A program made the position numbers and the translations under genes. A stretch of DNA of 45,466 bases, taken from the IMG/VR virus record IMGVR_UViG_2609459834_000005, one strand, 5' to 3'. Within the stretch, counting starts at the first letter, position 1, and each line of letters starts with the position of its first letter. Source of the DNA: a virus (lineage: Duplodnaviria > Heunggongvirae > Uroviricota > Caudoviricetes). The notes beneath the pieces were generated by a model that saw nothing but the letters and a program-made list of their open reading frames with translations, ran no database searches and was not told the DNA's origin. Of the stretch, positions 32,498 to 40,899 are shown piece after piece.

Positions 32498-32749
32498 TTA
32501 TTCTCCTGAAAAAGCAGAAAAGCCAGCTTTTATTCCGATCTCTTTCAATGCCTGTAATGAAGTGACAAACTCACCTTCGCGCAAGATAAATCCGTCCGTG
32601 ACCCGAGCATCCACAAAATTAATTAACGCAGCCCCATTCTTTCGCAAACACATAATGCGGTAATGACTAACAAGATTTCCATTTTCAACGCACACAGCAT
32701 AGAGGCCATCTTCACAAAAAATTTTACGCAGTTCTTCGATGTTCATCAT
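32498..32749 (-). CDS. hypothetical protein (83 aa); possibly Rem by length and position
   Basis: Track ORF between hokD terminator and ydfU; identity not recognised. Confidence 0.4.
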   Translation of the reverse strand: MMNIEELRKIFCEDGLYAVCVENGNLVSHYRIMCLRKNGAALINFVDARVTDGFILREGEFVTSLQALKEIGIKAGFSAFSGE

Positions 32750-34999: not shown

Positions 35000-36400
35000 T
35001 CAACCGAATCGATCTTGGTTTCAATCTATTTTATCGGGATCAGGCTTCTTTTTAGGTAACTTCGGGGGCTTAACTTGCTGATGACTTTGCGTTCGGCGCG
35101 TAAGCCAGGGATGGTCAGCTTTAGATTTAACATAGTATTTTGAGCGTAAATCAATACGGGCATTATCCACTCGTTCATGGACACTCTTTTCATCATCCAG
35201 TGGTATAGGCTCCGGGCCATCAACATACTTTTCCCAGCCCAGCGCTTTCCCGTCATACAGAACGTTAATTTCACCGTCAAAGTTCTCACATACAGTAACA
35301 ACCGAATGCCTAAGTCGATATCCCCGGCCCTCACTGCGTACCTGAAACGCACTGCTTTTGTACTGGAAAGTGAGATTTTTAGACAGAACGCGCTTCGCCT
35401 GTAGGCTGAAGATATAACCCAGTTCCTCTTCAGAATGGTGCACATCAAGATGAGCATTATCAGTAGTACGAGGCGACGTAGCGAACCGGTTGTTATAGGC
35501 TTCAATAAAGGTCGGCAACCATGCATTTGCTGTTTCAATATCACTGATATTCTGAAGCCGCATTTCTTTGACCAGCCTGTCCTGTAGTGTCTGATTGGCG
35601 CGCTCTACCCGCCCTTTTGCCTGCGGGCTGTTGGCATGGATTGGCTCGATGCCCAGTGTCTTTATCGCACGAGTGAACTGGGTCAGCTCACCTTCCCGCT
35701 CTGGGTTATTTACCCTGAATATACTGTGTCTATCAGAGTAGAGAGCGAGCGGTACGCCATGATCATTAAGGTAACCCCGGAGGGTTTCCATGTAAGCCCG
35801 GGTTGTTTCAGCAGGCACAAAACGCAACGCCATCAACGCACTGGTGGCATCATCAATGAAAACGATCAGTGTACATCTGGGGCCTCGATTTTCAAACCAG
35901 TCATGAGGTGAGCCATCAATCTGGATCAGTTCACCGTAAGATGGTCGTCGCATGCGGCGTTGATATATACGGGCAATTTTACGACGGCGTTCACGCCATA
36001 ACCCCTCTTCTATCATCCACTTTCTGAGAGTTTCAACGGATAAAGATAAACCGTGTATCTCGCGCAATTTTTCGCACGCAAACGTAGGTCCAAAATCAGC
36101 GTAACGGCCTTTGAGGAGTGAAATTACTGTTGCTCTGAATTCAGTAGAAAAGGAATTATTAGGACGCTTTCCACGTCGGTGGGAAACCAGACCAGAAGGC
36201 CCTTCATTTCTATACCGTTGCACCAGACGTTTAACCTGCCGAATAGAAATGCCAATGCGTGCCGCAGCTTGTTCCTGAGTAATATGTCGATTAATTGACT
36301 CCTGAATAATCTGAAGTCGGTGGAGTTCCTTATGACTCATCGTAACAGTCTCTTTGATCATGAAAAATCCCCCAGAGAATTGTCTGGGGACATTTTAGAA
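35000..36400 (-). mobile_element. inserted IS-like element with a single DDE transposase gene (IS481/ISNCY-like); ends not resolved
   Basis: 446-aa transposase ORF; flanking ORF appears truncated at the element edge. Confidence 0.5.
35021..36361 (-). CDS. DDE-type transposase (N-terminal HTH, integrase-core-like catalytic domain)
   Basis: Track ORF 446 aa; family assignment uncertain. Confidence 0.75.
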   Translation of the reverse strand: MIKETVTMSHKELHRLQIIQESINRHITQEQAAARIGISIRQVKRLVQRYRNEGPSGLVSHRRGKRPNNSFSTEFRATVISLLKGRYADFGPTFACEKLREIHGLSLSVETLRKWMIEEGLWRERRRKIARIYQRRMRRPSYGELIQIDGSPHDWFENRGPRCTLIVFIDDATSALMALRFVPAETTRAYMETLRGYLNDHGVPLALYSDRHSIFRVNNPEREGELTQFTRAIKTLGIEPIHANSPQAKGRVERANQTLQDRLVKEMRLQNISDIETANAWLPTFIEAYNNRFATSPRTTDNAHLDVHHSEEELGYIFSLQAKRVLSKNLTFQYKSSAFQVRSEGRGYRLRHSVVTVCENFDGEINVLYDGKALGWEKYVDGPEPIPLDDEKSVHERVDNARIDLRSKYYVKSKADHPWLTRRTQSHQQVKPPKLPKKKPDPDKID

Positions 36401-37874: not shown

Positions 37875-38322
37875 TTGCTTTTTCTATAAGTTCGTCAGTT
37901 TCACGATCCACTACGGCAGGATCAGCAAAAAGCAGTCCGGACTCCACCACATCGCCATATTCTTTGTTTAACCCGGCGATCATGTACGTGATGCTTTTTC
38001 CGTCACTAATTTCACGATACAACCTGAAATCATTAATCCGAATAGCCTCCATAATTGCAGGCACTAGCGCCGTGAACTTTTCACGCTTATCCCTGGTGTC
38101 GATAGCCTTCCAGCGTTCGAATATCTTCACTCGATTAACGCCAAGTGCTCGCTGATCAACCGCGCCACCTTCATCTGTGACACGCTGAACATCGATGTTC
38201 GGGCGCTCTTTCAAAGCCCAGAATGCTTCAGTGATTAATATCGTCGCCTGCTCCTGTGTCATTCCTGGTCGACATATCCAGGCATCCAGAGCCTCACGAG
38301 CCTGTTCAGGAGTGATTTTCAT
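37801..38322 (-). CDS. YdaT-like protein (cII position)
   Basis: 173-aa ORF; segment RWKAIDTRDKREKFTALVPAIMEAI resembles Rac YdaT as remembered. Confidence 0.45.
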   Translation of the reverse strand: MKITPEQAREALDAWICRPGMTQEQATILITEAFWALKERPNIDVQRVTDEGGAVDQRALGVNRVKIFERWKAIDTRDKREKFTALVPAIMEAIRINDFRLYREISDGKSITYMIAGLNKEYGDVVESGLLFADPAVVDRETDELIEKAIAFKLAYRQQYQQKAGWNYEPSFC

Positions 38323-38533
38323 TGTTCAACCGCCCCGCCCGCTTCGTCTTACGATATTCGTCATAAACCTTGGGATCATACAGAAGCTCGCCGCCAGATG
38401 CCTCCTGTAGACGCATCGCGCGACCTTCAGGAACCAGCTCTTGCCATTGAGAAACAGCAGATGGGTCAACGCCAGCAGCTTTCGCTACTTTGGCTTTCGT
38501 ACCGTAAAAATTAATTACGTCTGATTTAAACAT
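38306..38533 (-). CDS. dicC: Cro-like repressor DicC
   Basis: C-terminus LVPEGRAMRLQEASGGELLYDPKVYDEYRKTKRAGRLNNENHS matches DicC; SD GGAGGTG. Confidence 0.85.
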   Translation of the reverse strand: MFKSDVINFYGTKAKVAKAAGVDPSAVSQWQELVPEGRAMRLQEASGGELLYDPKVYDEYRKTKRAGRLNNENHS

Positions 38534-38545
38534 CGCACCTCCAAT

Positions 38546-38561
38546 ATTGAGTTTTCTCAAT
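38546..38561. promoter_or_regulatory. operator-like palindrome ATTGAG-TTTT-CTCAAT in the dicC-dicA divergent region
   Basis: Perfect inverted repeat between divergent starts. Confidence 0.4.
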
Positions 38562-38610
38562 GCTAATCACTCAAGGAATCTCAAGTCAAGGGTTATTAAG
38601 ATATCTAAAT

Positions 38611-39018
38611 ATGAACGAGAAAACTTTAGGTCAACGCATTAGAGAAAGACGTAAGCAGGTAGGCTTAAGTCAAAACGGTTTAAGCAAAGCTGCTGGCGTA
38701 TCTGGCTCATCAATTTCATTATGGGAAAGTGACCATACAGCCCCGCGCGGGCAAAATTTGCATCGCCTCGCCGAGGTATTGCAATGTTCACCAACTTGGA
38801 TACTGTTTGGCGACGAGGACAAAACACCAGCTCCCCCTGTTTCACTCGATAGTGCCTTAGACTTATCGGAAGATGAGTTAGAGATGCTGCGTTTGTATCG
38901 CGCACTTCCTAAATCAGAGCAACAAGCACAACTCAGCGAACTCCGCGCCCGCGTTGAGAATTTTAATCGCCTGTTCACCGAGCTATTAGAGGCTCGCAAA
39001 CGCAACAAGCATCAATAA
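38611..39018 (+). CDS. dicA: CI-like HTH repressor DicA (135 aa)
   Basis: HTH N-terminus and LQCSPTWILFGDEDK motif match DicA; start adjusted to ATG 38611. Confidence 0.85.
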   Translation: MNEKTLGQRIRERRKQVGLSQNGLSKAAGVSGSSISLWESDHTAPRGQNLHRLAEVLQCSPTWILFGDEDKTPAPPVSLDSALDLSEDELEMLRLYRALPKSEQQAQLSELRARVENFNRLFTELLEARKRNKHQ

Positions 39019-39210
39019 TCATCCCTTCACAAAATTTTAAAGCCTTACATTTCAATGTATTGGCTTTATCTTGCGCCAACACTTGAGTTTTCTCATCAAA
39101 AAACCCTGACGAAAAATAATGAGAAAACTAAATTACCTCCATCAAGACACCGCACGGTGTTCTCAGCAAACAGTTCCGCTACCCCGGCGTTAAGGGGAAA
39201 TGAGGTCAGC

Positions 39211-39366
39211 ATGGATACTATCGATCTTGGCAACAGCGAATCTCTGGTATGTGGCGTGTTCCCCAACCAGGACGGCACGTTCACCGCGATGACGTATACC
39301 AAAAGCAAAACGTTTAAAACCGAAAATGGTGCCCGTCGCTGGCTGGAAAGAAACTCAGGTGAGTGA
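39211..39366 (+). CDS. ydfA: YdfA (51 aa)
   Basis: MDTIDLGNSESLVCGVFPNQDGTFTAMTYTKSKTFKTENGARRWLERNSGE. Confidence 0.8.
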   Translation: MDTIDLGNSESLVCGVFPNQDGTFTAMTYTKSKTFKTENGARRWLERNSGE

Positions 39367-39367
39367 T

Positions 39368-39943
39368 ATGGATTTCGACACAATCATGGAAAAGGCTTAC
39401 GAAGAATACTTCGAAGGCCTTGCCGAAGGCGAAGAAGCTCTCAGCTTCAGTGAGTTTAAACAGGCACTCAGAATAAGAATGTGCTCTCACAATGACGCGG
39501 AGCACAAATATGAGAAGCAAAATCAGACCGCAGAAAATTTTGTTCTGGAACCCGGAGAAACGCTTTTCAAAATTCCCGTTACGTGCCCCATTTGCGGTTT
39601 TACATCAGAAGAACTTGACGACTCCTGTAACAATCAGGAAACAACCAAGTATGTCGAAGATGATACCGAGTGCGCACGAAGAACGATTATATCCACGAGT
39701 CCAAACTCCAGGACCAATAAATCTCACTATGAGAGGGTGATTAATCCACTCCCCCAAACCAATAAAAAAGATGCCGGAGGACAAAAAACCCAATGGAACA
39801 ACGGGATATCTGTCAAAAAAAGACGTTCCATTAAAGACAAACAACGCAGCGCCAACAACTGTAAGCGCTTTATACCAGTAATCAATTTTCATGTTCTTAA
39901 GCGGATTTATTGGTGGTTGCGACATTGCTTAATGAATCCTTAA
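39368..39943 (+). CDS. YdfB/YdfC-like protein as one contiguous 191-aa ORF with a CPICG zinc-finger-like motif
   Basis: Track ORF 39326..39943; start set at ATG 39368 right after ydfA stop. Confidence 0.55.
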   Translation: MDFDTIMEKAYEEYFEGLAEGEEALSFSEFKQALRIRMCSHNDAEHKYEKQNQTAENFVLEPGETLFKIPVTCPICGFTSEELDDSCNNQETTKYVEDDTECARRTIISTSPNSRTNKSHYERVINPLPQTNKKDAGGQKTQWNNGISVKKRRSIKDKQRSANNCKRFIPVINFHVLKRIYWWLRHCLMNP

Positions 39944-40202
39944 AACTGTGGTGATTTTAAGGATACCACCTCGCCTGACGTGGTTAAAAGCAGGCACACA
40001 ACACGAAAGCGCACGGCGAAGTTCGTCTCACTGTACGGTGTCGTTAAATTTAATTCGACCGTGCGCTTCCGGTTGTGGCAACCCGCAAAATGGCGCGGCG
40101 GTAAGTATGGCGGGGGTATTCCTTCCCCGTTGAGGACACCGGGTTGTCAGGTTGACCATACGCTTAAGTGACAACCCCGCTGCAACGCCCTCTGTTATCA
40201 AT

Positions 40203-40260
40203 TTTCTGGTGACGTTTGGCGGTATCAGTTTTACTCCGTGACTGCTCTGCCGCCCTTTTT
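40203..40260 (+). ncRNA. dicF: DicF small RNA (ftsZ-targeting) with intrinsic terminator
   Basis: tttctggtgacgtttggcggtatcagttttactccgtgactgctctgccgcccttttt matches remembered DicF. Confidence 0.88.
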
Positions 40261-40429
40261 AAAGTGAATTTTGTGATGCGGTGAATACGGCTAAGCGCAC
40301 GCGGAACAGTTAAAACCAAAAACAGTGTTATGGGTGGATTCTCTGTATCCGACGTTAATTGTTAACTGGTTAACGTCACCTGGAGGCACCAGGCACTGCA
40401 TCACAAAATTCATTGTTGAGGACGCGATA

Positions 40430-40618
40430 ATGAAAACGTTATTACCAAACGTTAATACGTCTGAAGGTTGTTTTGAAATTGGTGTCACTATCAGTAACCC
40501 TGTATTTACTGAAGATGCCATTAACAAGAGAAAACAAGAACGGGAGCTATTAAATAAAATATGCATTGTTTCAATGCTGGCTCGTTTACGTCTGATGCCA
40601 AAAGGATGTGCACAATGA
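40430..40618 (+). CDS. dicB: cell division inhibitor DicB (62 aa)
   Basis: MKTLLPNVNTSEGCFEIGVTISNPVFTEDAINKRKQERELLNKICIVSMLARLRLMPKGCAQ. Confidence 0.9.
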   Translation: MKTLLPNVNTSEGCFEIGVTISNPVFTEDAINKRKQERELLNKICIVSMLARLRLMPKGCAQ

Positions 40619-40806
40619 ATTCAGCATTTGCGCTTGTTCTGACAGTTTTTCTTGTTTCCGGAGTGCCAGTTGATATTGCAGTCAGTGTTCACAGGACAAT
40701 GCAGGAGTGTATGACTGCAGCAACCGAACAGAAAATTCCCGGTAACTGTTACCCGGTCGATAAAGTTATTCACCAGGATAATATCGAAATCCCGGCAGGT
40801 CTTTAA
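40615..40806 (+). CDS. ydfD: YdfD (63 aa membrane/lysis-associated protein)
   Basis: MNSAFALVLTVFLVSGVPVDIAVSVHRTMQECMTAATEQKIPGNCYPVDKVIHQDNIEIPAGL; ATGA overlap with dicB. Confidence 0.8.
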   Translation: MNSAFALVLTVFLVSGVPVDIAVSVHRTMQECMTAATEQKIPGNCYPVDKVIHQDNIEIPAGL

Positions 40807-40899
40807 AACAGTTCCGTAATAAATATCCGGTTTCATTCTTATATGCCAGCAATGGCAGGGATTTGTTCATCCTTAAATCTGTCATGAGGTTAAAACAAA

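What the first reader, a model, noticed from the sequence alone, without database searches (positions are those of the whole stretch)
40203..40806. dicF sRNA, dicB and ydfD form a division-inhibition and lysis module under the dicA/dicC switch
DicF (ftsZ-targeting sRNA), DicB (MinC-dependent division inhibitor) and YdfD are all intact and co-oriented with ydfA, ydfB/C and ydfE downstream of the DicA repressor. Derepression of this operon is toxic.
Basis: established knowledge. Interest (0 to 1): 0.35.

Follow-up and report, generated by a model that had tools for sequence, protein, structure and literature searches.

The report
Known dicF–dicB–ydfD prophage division-inhibition module
This is the well-known prophage module that blocks cell division and can lyse E. 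coli (DicF small RNA, DicB, YdfD); it is intact here in a nearly complete mEp460/Qin-type prophage, so it is ordinary, although the operon around it differs from the K-12 textbook version in several details.

Summary
DicF lies at 40203-40255 (Rfam RF00039, 76.7 bits, E 2.6e-15). It is base-for-base identical to K-12, as are its terminator and about 165 nt of upstream precursor. DicB (40430-40618) is identical in protein to K-12. YdfD (40615-40806) differs at two residues, V6A and E17V. All lie on the + strand, downstream of a DicA-family repressor and ydfA and upstream of a full-length 823-aa exonuclease, which K-12 retains only as the truncated ydfE.

- ydfC is absent and ydfB is broken after codon 34. 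A ~530-bp cassette replaces them. It carries a reverse-strand 106-aa membrane-protein gene that RefSeq leaves unannotated.
- The repressor is a different-immunity DicA variant (57% identical to K-12) with different operators (TTGAGTTTTCTCA, three copies).
- The -35 hexamer of the operon promoter has a T-to-C change (TTGACG to CTGACG) that none of 570 complete genomes with this promoter type matches.

The module is present in 4639 of 5426 complete E. coli genomes and in isolated phages (HannyBb, Tritos, mEp460_ev081). It is already known and of low interest.

The parts
38306..38533 (-). DicC-family Cro-like regulator (75 aa)
   Evidence: Matches Pfam P22_Cro at E 3.2e-16. Matches NCBIfam DicC at 165 bits against a cut-off of 130. 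It is 70% identical to K-12 DicC, and the differences are in the N-terminal DNA-binding part.
38546..38561 (.). Operator-like perfect palindrome ATTGAGTTTTCTCAAT between the divergent dicC-like and dicA-like genes
   Evidence: Searches give exact copies of TTGAGTTTTCTCA at 38547 and 39083 and a 1-mismatch copy at 39120 (reverse). K-12 has a different sequence here.
38611..39018 (+). DicA-family repressor (135 aa), different-immunity variant
   Evidence: Matches NCBIfam DicA at 239 bits against a cut-off of 101. Pfam finds only HTH-type DNA-binding domains and no peptidase S24 domain. It is 57% identical to K-12 DicA.
39083..39134 (+). dicBp-equivalent (PL-like) promoter: -35 CTGACG at 39106-39111 and -10 TAAATT at 39129-39134, flanked and overlapped by two operator copies (39083-39096 and 39119-39132)
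   Evidence: The hexamers were placed by alignment with the K-12 dicBp region and by my own scan. C at 39106 is T in every comparator.
39211..39366 (+). ydfA (51 aa, DUF1391)
   Evidence: Pfam E 8.8e-28. The gene aligns with K-12 ydfA.
39368..39469 (+). ydfB remnant (first 34 codons; the open frame continues to 39943 as a likely shadow ORF)
   Evidence: Identity to K-12 ends after codon 34. RefSeq annotates it as a partial pseudogene. The forward frame is in codon register with the reverse gene, from my own coordinate arithmetic on the ORFs.
39605..39925 (-). Gene for a 106-aa hydrophobic (probably membrane) protein, convergent with the operon, inside the cassette that replaces ydfC
   Evidence: 60 homologues down to 34% identity, with invariant DYWYKA and GLGEWxNHP motifs. 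A 58% homologue sits at the same position beside cI in three other prophages. A distant homologue has only this frame open. There are three hydrophobic segments.
40004..40071 (+). Stem (40004-40016 / 40059-40071) at the position of the RNase III cut that gives the 190-nt DicF precursor in K-12
   Evidence: Inverted repeat and predicted fold. It is conserved with K-12. The processing scheme is from PMC10448788.
40203..40255 (+). dicF small RNA (53 nt), followed by the terminator U-run to about 40260
   Evidence: Rfam RF00039 at 76.7 bits. Identical to K-12 b1574. The terminator hairpin folds as expected.
40265..40412 (+). Long-range helix (40265-40283 / 40394-40412) in the dicF-dicB spacer, the probable RNase III substrate that yields the 72-nt DicF 3' end
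   Evidence: A 19-nt inverted repeat, 95% complementary. The fold has a z-score of -5.0. The 72-nt species is reported in PMC5069750.
40430..40618 (+). dicB (62 aa), cell-division inhibitor
   Evidence: Pfam DicB E 1.9e-40 and NCBIfam 132.8 bits against a cut-off of 100. There is one synonymous difference from K-12.
40615..40806 (+). ydfD (63 aa, DUF1482), lysis protein; V6A and E17V relative to K-12
   Evidence: Pfam E 2.2e-25. The changes are read from the alignment. The allele matches RefSeq WP_001083280.1, 'lysis protein YdfD'.
40900..43371 (+). Full-length 823-aa exonuclease (intact counterpart of the truncated K-12 ydfE)
   Evidence: The C-terminal Rv2179c-like 3'-5' exonuclease domain scores E 2.4e-67. 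phrog_2082 exonuclease matches the full length. K-12 ydfE is a pseudogene cut by IS2.
32498..32749 (-). rem, the antirepressor of DicA in K-12
   Evidence: 83 of 83 residues identical to K-12 Rem. The function is from PMC10448788.

Best explanation
This is the early-left (PL-type) operon of a nearly full-length mEp460/Qin-type lambdoid prophage integrated next to rspB.

**Control (inferred).** In the lysogen, the 135-aa DicA-family repressor binds TTGAGTTTTCTCA-type operators at the divergent dicA/dicC promoters and at the promoter upstream of ydfA, and keeps the operon off. This repressor has no self-cleavage domain. Repression is therefore presumably lifted by the Rem antirepressor or by a spontaneous DicA/DicC switch, as in K-12.

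**Transcript and processing (inferred from K-12).** On derepression, one transcript would run ydfA, the ydfB remnant, across the antisense of the 106-aa gene, then dicF, dicB, ydfD and the exonuclease. RNase III and RNase E would cut DicF out of it. Its 3' end would come from the intrinsic terminator or from an RNase III cut in the spacer helix.

**Effectors (K-12 literature).** DicF represses ftsZ and other mRNAs by base pairing. [quoted passage not shown] YdfD inhibits IspG and causes lysis.

**What is shown here.** The sequence identity of the parts, the regulator family memberships, the shared operators and the conserved processing stems.

**What is not shown here.** Repression, processing and toxicity in this strain are taken from K-12 work and were not tested.
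For: - DicF scores 76.7 bits in Rfam and is identical to K-12, together with about 165 nt of upstream sequence and the terminator.
- DicB protein is identical to K-12. YdfD is 61/63 identical with both conserved cysteines kept.
- NCBIfam DicA and DicC match above their cut-offs.
- The operator motif occurs three times within 590 bp, at the OR-like and PL-like positions.
- The -35 and -10 hexamers align with K-12 dicBp.
- Stems are conserved at the positions of the K-12 RNase III cuts.
- Rem is identical to K-12.
- No terminator-like site lies on the + strand between ydfA and dicF.
- The same 1.9-kb arrangement is 99.3% identical in the isolated phage HannyBb, where exonuclease follows it. In the window, exonuclease, xis and int follow.
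- The structural half of the window matches mEp460-type phages.
- Functions are from PMC10448788, PMC5069750, PMC6832061 and PMC8835842.
Against: - There are no expression or phenotype data for this strain.
- The -35 hexamer is CTGACG instead of TTGACG, which may weaken the promoter.
- The repressor is only 57% identical to K-12 DicA, so control by the K-12-identical Rem is an assumption.
- A convergent gene lies between ydfB and dicF and could interfere with read-through.
- Both YdfD changes (V6A, E17V) fall in the N-terminal domain, which binds IspG in K-12 (PMC8835842). This allele is not covered in the papers I read.
- My DicF-ftsZ duplex calculation was no better than shuffled controls (148 of 1000 as good). 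The pairing claim therefore rests on sequence identity with K-12 and on the literature, not on that test.
Confidence: 0.9

Rival explanations
1. The genes are intact, but the module is effectively silenced or attenuated in this strain. The -35 T-to-C change weakens the operon promoter, and convergent transcription of the 106-aa gene limits read-through. Derepression would then give much less DicF, DicB and YdfD than in K-12.
For: - C at 39106 replaces the T found in O26 11368, NCTC9699, GN05505, phage HannyBb and K-12.
- None of 570 genomes with this promoter type is identical over the 60 nt around it.
- A real reverse-strand gene lies inside the operon.
Against: - One base change in a -35 hexamer still leaves 4 of 6 matches and an unchanged -10.
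- The same cassette occurs in a phage that was isolated as a virus (HannyBb), where downstream early-left genes such as the exonuclease must presumably still be transcribed across it.
- No promoter-like site at the 9-of-12 threshold was found for the reverse gene.
- The single base could be a sequencing error.
Confidence: 0.2
2. The prophage is still inducible. The operon would then act mainly as the ordinary early-left operon of a live phage, giving host takeover and recombination/excision functions during lytic growth, rather than as a domesticated host module.
For: - The window holds tail, head, terminase, lysis, Q-like, int and xis genes.
- It matches isolated phages over most of its length.
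- int and xis are intact here, whereas O26 11368 has an IS66-family element in xis.
Against: - An ISEsa1-family transposase ORF (35021-36361) interrupts the early-right region between the replication genes and the Q-like antiterminator.
- Close relatives carry frameshifts in the capsid and Rz genes.
- Inducibility was not tested.
Confidence: 0.25

Closest known systems
[quoted passage not shown]
   Same: - Same chromosomal site, next to rspB.
- dicF is identical, DicB is identical, and YdfD is 61/63 identical.
- ydfA is conserved.
- Same gene order and strand.
- The stems at the RNase III cut positions are conserved.
- Rem is identical.
   Different: - ydfC is absent and ydfB is cut after codon 34. 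They are replaced by a cassette with a reverse-strand 106-aa gene.
- DicA is 57% and DicC 70% identical, and the operator sequence differs.
- ydfE is a full-length exonuclease rather than an IS2-truncated pseudogene.
- xis and int are intact, and the phage structural genes are present.
- The -35 hexamer carries a T-to-C change.
Early-left regions of isolated mEp460-like phages (HannyBb PP925841.1, mEp460_ev081 LR597641.1, Tritos OV696610.1, PhiR42_1)
   Same: - HannyBb has the same 1.9-kb repressor-end / ydfA / cassette / dicF / dicB / ydfD stretch at 99.3% identity.
- Tritos carries an annotated DicF, dicB and ydfD in the same order, before the exonuclease.
   Different: - Tritos keeps the K-12-type ydfB and ydfC, and mEp460_ev081 and PhiR42_1 do not match across the cassette.
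- HannyBb has T, not C, at the -35 position.
- The phage records annotate forward ORFs across the cassette, not the reverse gene.
Lambda PL operon with kil (a phage-encoded FtsZ inhibitor) under CI/Cro
   Same: The logic is the same: a division inhibitor in the early-left operon, held off by the immunity repressor binding operators at both PR-like and PL-like promoters. The analogy is drawn in PMC10448788, and phage Evi carries a Kil protein at this position.
   Different: There is no sequence relationship between DicB/DicF and Kil. The repressor here is short and lacks a RecA-dependent cleavage domain, so it depends on an antirepressor as the Gifsy repressors do (PMC10448788).

Membership tests
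DicF RNA (Rfam RF00039) | Covariance-model score at or above the gathering score over the full model | tested here: met
   76.7 bits against a gathering score of 48, model positions 1-52 of 52, E 2.6e-15.
DicF RNA (Rfam RF00039) | Sequence of both target-pairing regions (5' end for xylR; 3' part for ftsZ and pykA) unchanged from the characterised K-12 RNA | tested here: met
   All 53 nt are identical to K-12 b1574. The pairing regions are as described in PMC5069750.
DicF RNA (Rfam RF00039) | Terminator hairpin plus U-run at the 3' end | tested here: met
   GGCGG...CCGCC stem followed by CUUUUU. The fold gives -15.9 kcal/mol, with 5 of 200 shuffles as good.
DicF RNA (Rfam RF00039) | [quoted passage not shown] | not testable with these tools
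   The flanking stems are conserved. My duplex calculation with the ftsZ leader of an O26 genome did not beat shuffles.
DicB (Pfam PF05358, NCBIfam NF049927) | Full-length match above the curated cut-offs | tested here: met
   Pfam 136.8 bits against 27. NCBIfam 132.8 bits against 100. The protein is identical to K-12 DicB.
DicB (Pfam PF05358, NCBIfam NF049927) | MinC-dependent inhibition of FtsZ-ring assembly | not testable with these tools
   Inferred from 100% protein identity to the characterised K-12 protein (PMC6832061, PMC5069750).
YdfD lysis protein (Pfam DUF1482, PF07358) | Full-length match above the cut-off, with the two conserved cysteines present | tested here: met
   88.7 bits against 25. 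C32 and C45 are retained, read from the translation. The cysteines are described in PMC8835842.
YdfD lysis protein (Pfam DUF1482, PF07358) | Lysis through IspG inhibition by this allele (A6, V17) | not tested
   Both substitutions lie in the N-terminal domain (residues 1-28), which binds IspG in K-12 (PMC8835842). The same allele is named 'lysis protein YdfD' in RefSeq, by homology only.
DicA/DicC immunity switch | Divergently transcribed DicA-family and DicC-family regulators | tested here: met
   NCBIfam DicA 239 bits against 101 and DicC 165 bits against 130. The genes are 77 bp apart on opposite strands.
DicA/DicC immunity switch | Shared operators at the divergent promoters and at the operon promoter | tested here: met
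   TTGAGTTTTCTCA occurs exactly at 38547 and 39083, with one mismatch at 39120 (reverse). The only other matches in 45 kb have 2 mismatches. Binding itself was not tested.
DicA/DicC immunity switch | Same immunity specificity as K-12 Qin | tested here: not met
   DicA is 57% identical and DicC 70% identical, with the differences in the DNA-binding parts. The operator regions do not align with K-12.
DicA/DicC immunity switch | Short repressor without a self-cleavage domain, paired with a Rem antirepressor | tested here: met
   The repressor is 135 aa with HTH-type DNA-binding domains only. Rem is present and identical to K-12. Rem action on this variant was not tested.
K-12-type dicBF operon composition (ydfA-ydfB-ydfC-dicF-dicB-ydfD-ydfE) | ydfB and ydfC present between ydfA and dicF | tested here: not met
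   ydfB matches only through codon 34, and no ydfC sequence is present. RefSeq annotates a partial ydfB pseudogene and no ydfC.

The most novel reading that the evidence does not exclude
The cassette that replaces ydfC in about 15% of complete E. coli genomes encodes a conserved 106-aa membrane protein that RefSeq leaves unannotated in the records examined. It is transcribed against the early-left operon, at the same place beside the repressor gene as in other lambdoid prophages. If it is expressed in the lysogen, it could be a new lysogen-expressed accessory ('moron') gene for superinfection exclusion or immunity. Its convergent transcription, together with this strain's -35 change, could also dampen leaky DicF/DicB expression.
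Probability: 0.2. Interest if true: 0.35.

Novelty: already known. Interest (0 to 1): 0.1.

Why it matters
The module itself adds nothing new. DicF, DicB and YdfD have been studied for decades, and this copy is essentially the K-12 sequence. The check is useful for annotation in four ways:
- The 'K-12 operon' cannot be copied across wholesale to this strain.
- A real gene on the opposite strand is being missed, or replaced by a shadow ORF, in public annotations.
- The repressor belongs to a different immunity type from K-12 DicA, while the antirepressor Rem is unchanged. That raises a small testable question about Rem specificity.
- One strain-specific promoter base may change how toxic derepression is.

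Tried and rejected
- **DicF-ftsZ duplex.** RNAduplex of DicF against the ftsZ leader of O26:H11 11368 gave -38.5 kcal/mol, but 148 of 1000 shuffles did as well. I did not use it as evidence.
- **Selection test on the cassette.** I looked for diverged copies in E. coli to compare substitutions in the forward and reverse frames. All full-length copies are at least 99.5% identical, so there was no power. I used protein homologues instead.
- **Consensus scan.** It found no promoter or terminator count above shuffle expectation in 38200-41000. A relaxed scan gave only 8-of-12 candidates for the reverse gene's promoter.
- **Family searches for the 106-aa protein.** PADLOC, Pfam, NCBIfam and PHROGs all gave nothing.
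- **Genome context of distant homologues.** The Herminiimonas and Reinekea contexts gave no functional clue beyond arrays of small unknown genes.
- **The forward 191-aa ORF (phrog_35040, WP_000344958.1) as the real gene.** I considered and rejected this. Its tail is the in-register antisense of the 106-aa gene, and the distant homologue has only the 106-aa frame open.

Full report
**The observation**

Rfam finds one DicF match in the window, at 40204-40255 on the + strand. It scores 76.7 bits against a gathering score of 48, with E 2.6e-15, and covers the full model. Transferring the K-12 annotation (b1574, 53 nt) gives 40203-40255.

Downstream are dicB (40430-40618, 62 aa; Pfam DicB E 1.9e-40; NCBIfam 132.8 bits against a cut-off of 100) and ydfD (40615-40806, 63 aa; DUF1482 E 2.2e-25). 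The two genes overlap by four bases, as in K-12.

**Comparison with K-12 MG1655**

From about 40037 to 40910 the window and K-12 differ at only ten positions.
- The 53 nt of DicF, its terminator and the preceding ~165 nt are unchanged apart from two bases in the precursor.
- dicB has one synonymous change, so the protein is identical.
- ydfD has two missense changes, V6A and E17V. Both lie in the N-terminal domain, which binds IspG in K-12, and both conserved cysteines are kept (PMC8835842).
- The allele is the RefSeq protein WP_001083280.1, named 'lysis protein YdfD' by homology.

**Processing signals**

In K-12, DicF is cut from a transcript that starts upstream of ydfA. RNase III makes a 190-nt species, RNase E makes the 53-nt 5' end, and the 3' end comes from termination or from an RNase III cut that gives 72 nt (PMC10448788, PMC5069750).

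The window keeps an inverted repeat at 40004-40016 / 40059-40071. A 190-nt species ending at 40255 would start within its 3' arm. The window also keeps a 19-nt repeat at 40265-40283 / 40394-40412, which contains the expected 72-nt end. The spacer fold has a z-score of -5.0.

**What differs upstream**

Homology to K-12 ends after ydfB codon 34 (about 39469) and returns only near 40000. ydfC is absent.

The ~530 bp in between is a cassette found, at 99.5% identity or more, in 795 of 5426 complete E. coli genomes. It contains two overlapping open frames: a forward 191-aa frame that continues from the ydfB start, and a reverse 106-aa frame at 39605-39925. The evidence favours the reverse frame as the real gene.
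- It has 60 homologues down to 34% identity in Yersinia, Herminiimonas, Reinekea and metagenomes. All are about 100-110 aa, with invariant DYWYKA and GLGEWxNHP motifs.
- A 58% homologue sits in three other lambdoid prophages at the same place: next to the repressor gene and opposite to the early-left genes.
- In the Herminiimonas locus only this frame is open.
- The forward frame is in codon register with it, which is the antisense frame most often open by chance.

RefSeq annotates neither frame in O26 11368 or NCTC9699, calling only a partial ydfB pseudogene. Other records and phage HannyBb call the forward ORF. No family library gives the protein a function.

**The switch**

The regulators pass the NCBIfam DicA and DicC cut-offs. 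They are only 57% and 70% identical to the K-12 proteins, and the differences are concentrated in the DNA-binding parts.

The operator sequence has changed with them. A palindrome ATTGAGTTTTCTCAAT lies between the divergent genes. Two further copies (39083-39096 and 39119-39132) bracket the promoter upstream of ydfA. No other copy with fewer than two mismatches exists in the 45 kb. So this is a DicA/DicC-type switch of a different immunity specificity. Binding is inferred, not shown.

The repressor has no cleavage domain. In K-12 it is controlled by the antirepressor Rem (PMC10448788). Rem in the window (32498-32749, minus strand) is 100% identical to K-12, which leaves open whether one Rem serves both repressor types.

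**A promoter base not seen elsewhere**

Aligned with K-12 dicBp, the promoter here is -35 CTGACG (39106-39111) and -10 TAAATT (39129-39134). O26 11368, NCTC9699, GN05505, phage HannyBb and K-12 all have TTGAC at the -35 position. The window has C at 39106.

None of 570 complete genomes with this promoter type is identical over the surrounding 60 nt. I confirmed that the mismatch is at 39106 only for the genomes aligned. The change may weaken the promoter, or it may be a sequencing error. This is inference.

**Context**

The window is a nearly full-length mEp460/Qin-type prophage next to rspB. It has tail, head, terminase, lysis, Q-like, relBE, hokD, rem, immunity, early-left, xis and int genes. 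An ISEsa1-family transposase ORF lies in the early-right region.

The gene after ydfD is a full-length 823-aa exonuclease. K-12 ydfE is its IS2-truncated remnant.

The 604-bp module matches in 4639 of 5426 complete E. coli genomes, with a median of 2 copies and up to 9. It also occurs in isolated phages. The presence of multiple copies and the wide conservation were already reported (PMC5069750).

**Verdict**

The finding is a correct identification of a well-known system. The module is intact. Toxicity on derepression is a reasonable transfer from K-12 but was not tested here.

The corrections are:
- ydfC is absent and ydfB is broken.
- A reverse-strand gene was missed.
- The repressor is of a different immunity type.
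- ydfE is full length.
- The -35 hexamer carries a change not seen in other genomes.

None of these moves the finding out of the 'already known' class.

Noticed in passing
window 39605-39925 (minus strand): A 106-aa hydrophobic protein gene lies inside the operon on the opposite strand. It has real homologues in other prophages and in unrelated bacteria. RefSeq leaves it unannotated in near-identical genomes, and some records call the in-register forward shadow ORF instead.
   Followed up: partly
window 39106: C replaces the T found in every comparator at the first base of the -35 hexamer of the operon promoter (TTGACG to CTGACG). No complete E. coli genome with this promoter type is identical over the surrounding 60 nt.
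   Followed up: partly
window 32498-32749 (minus strand) and 38611-39018: The Rem antirepressor is 100% identical to K-12, while its presumed partner DicA is only 57% identical. Rem may recognise a conserved part of the repressor, or the pairing may not hold here.
   Followed up: no
window 35021-36361 (minus strand): A 446-aa ORF matches the ISEsa1-family transposase that RefSeq marks as partial in relatives. It sits between the replication-region genes and ydfW/flxA and may make the prophage defective.
   Followed up: no
window 43444-45010: The excisionase and integrase ORFs are intact here. O26:H11 11368 diverges from the window at 43537, where it has an IS66-family element that truncates xis.
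   Followed up: partly
window 26274-26659 and 29170-29562 (minus strand); 1430-1628 (minus strand): Rfam finds two cspA-type thermoregulator leaders, which by position correspond to the cspI and cspB genes annotated in near-identical NCTC9699. It also finds an IS009 RNA match in the tail-fibre end of the prophage.
   Followed up: no
window 40207-40217 and 40433-40445: In the predicted fold of the dicF-dicB transcript, the 5' end of DicF pairs with dicB codons 2-5 in an 11-bp duplex with three G-U pairs. The sequence is the same in K-12, and the pairing is probably of no significance.
   Followed up: no
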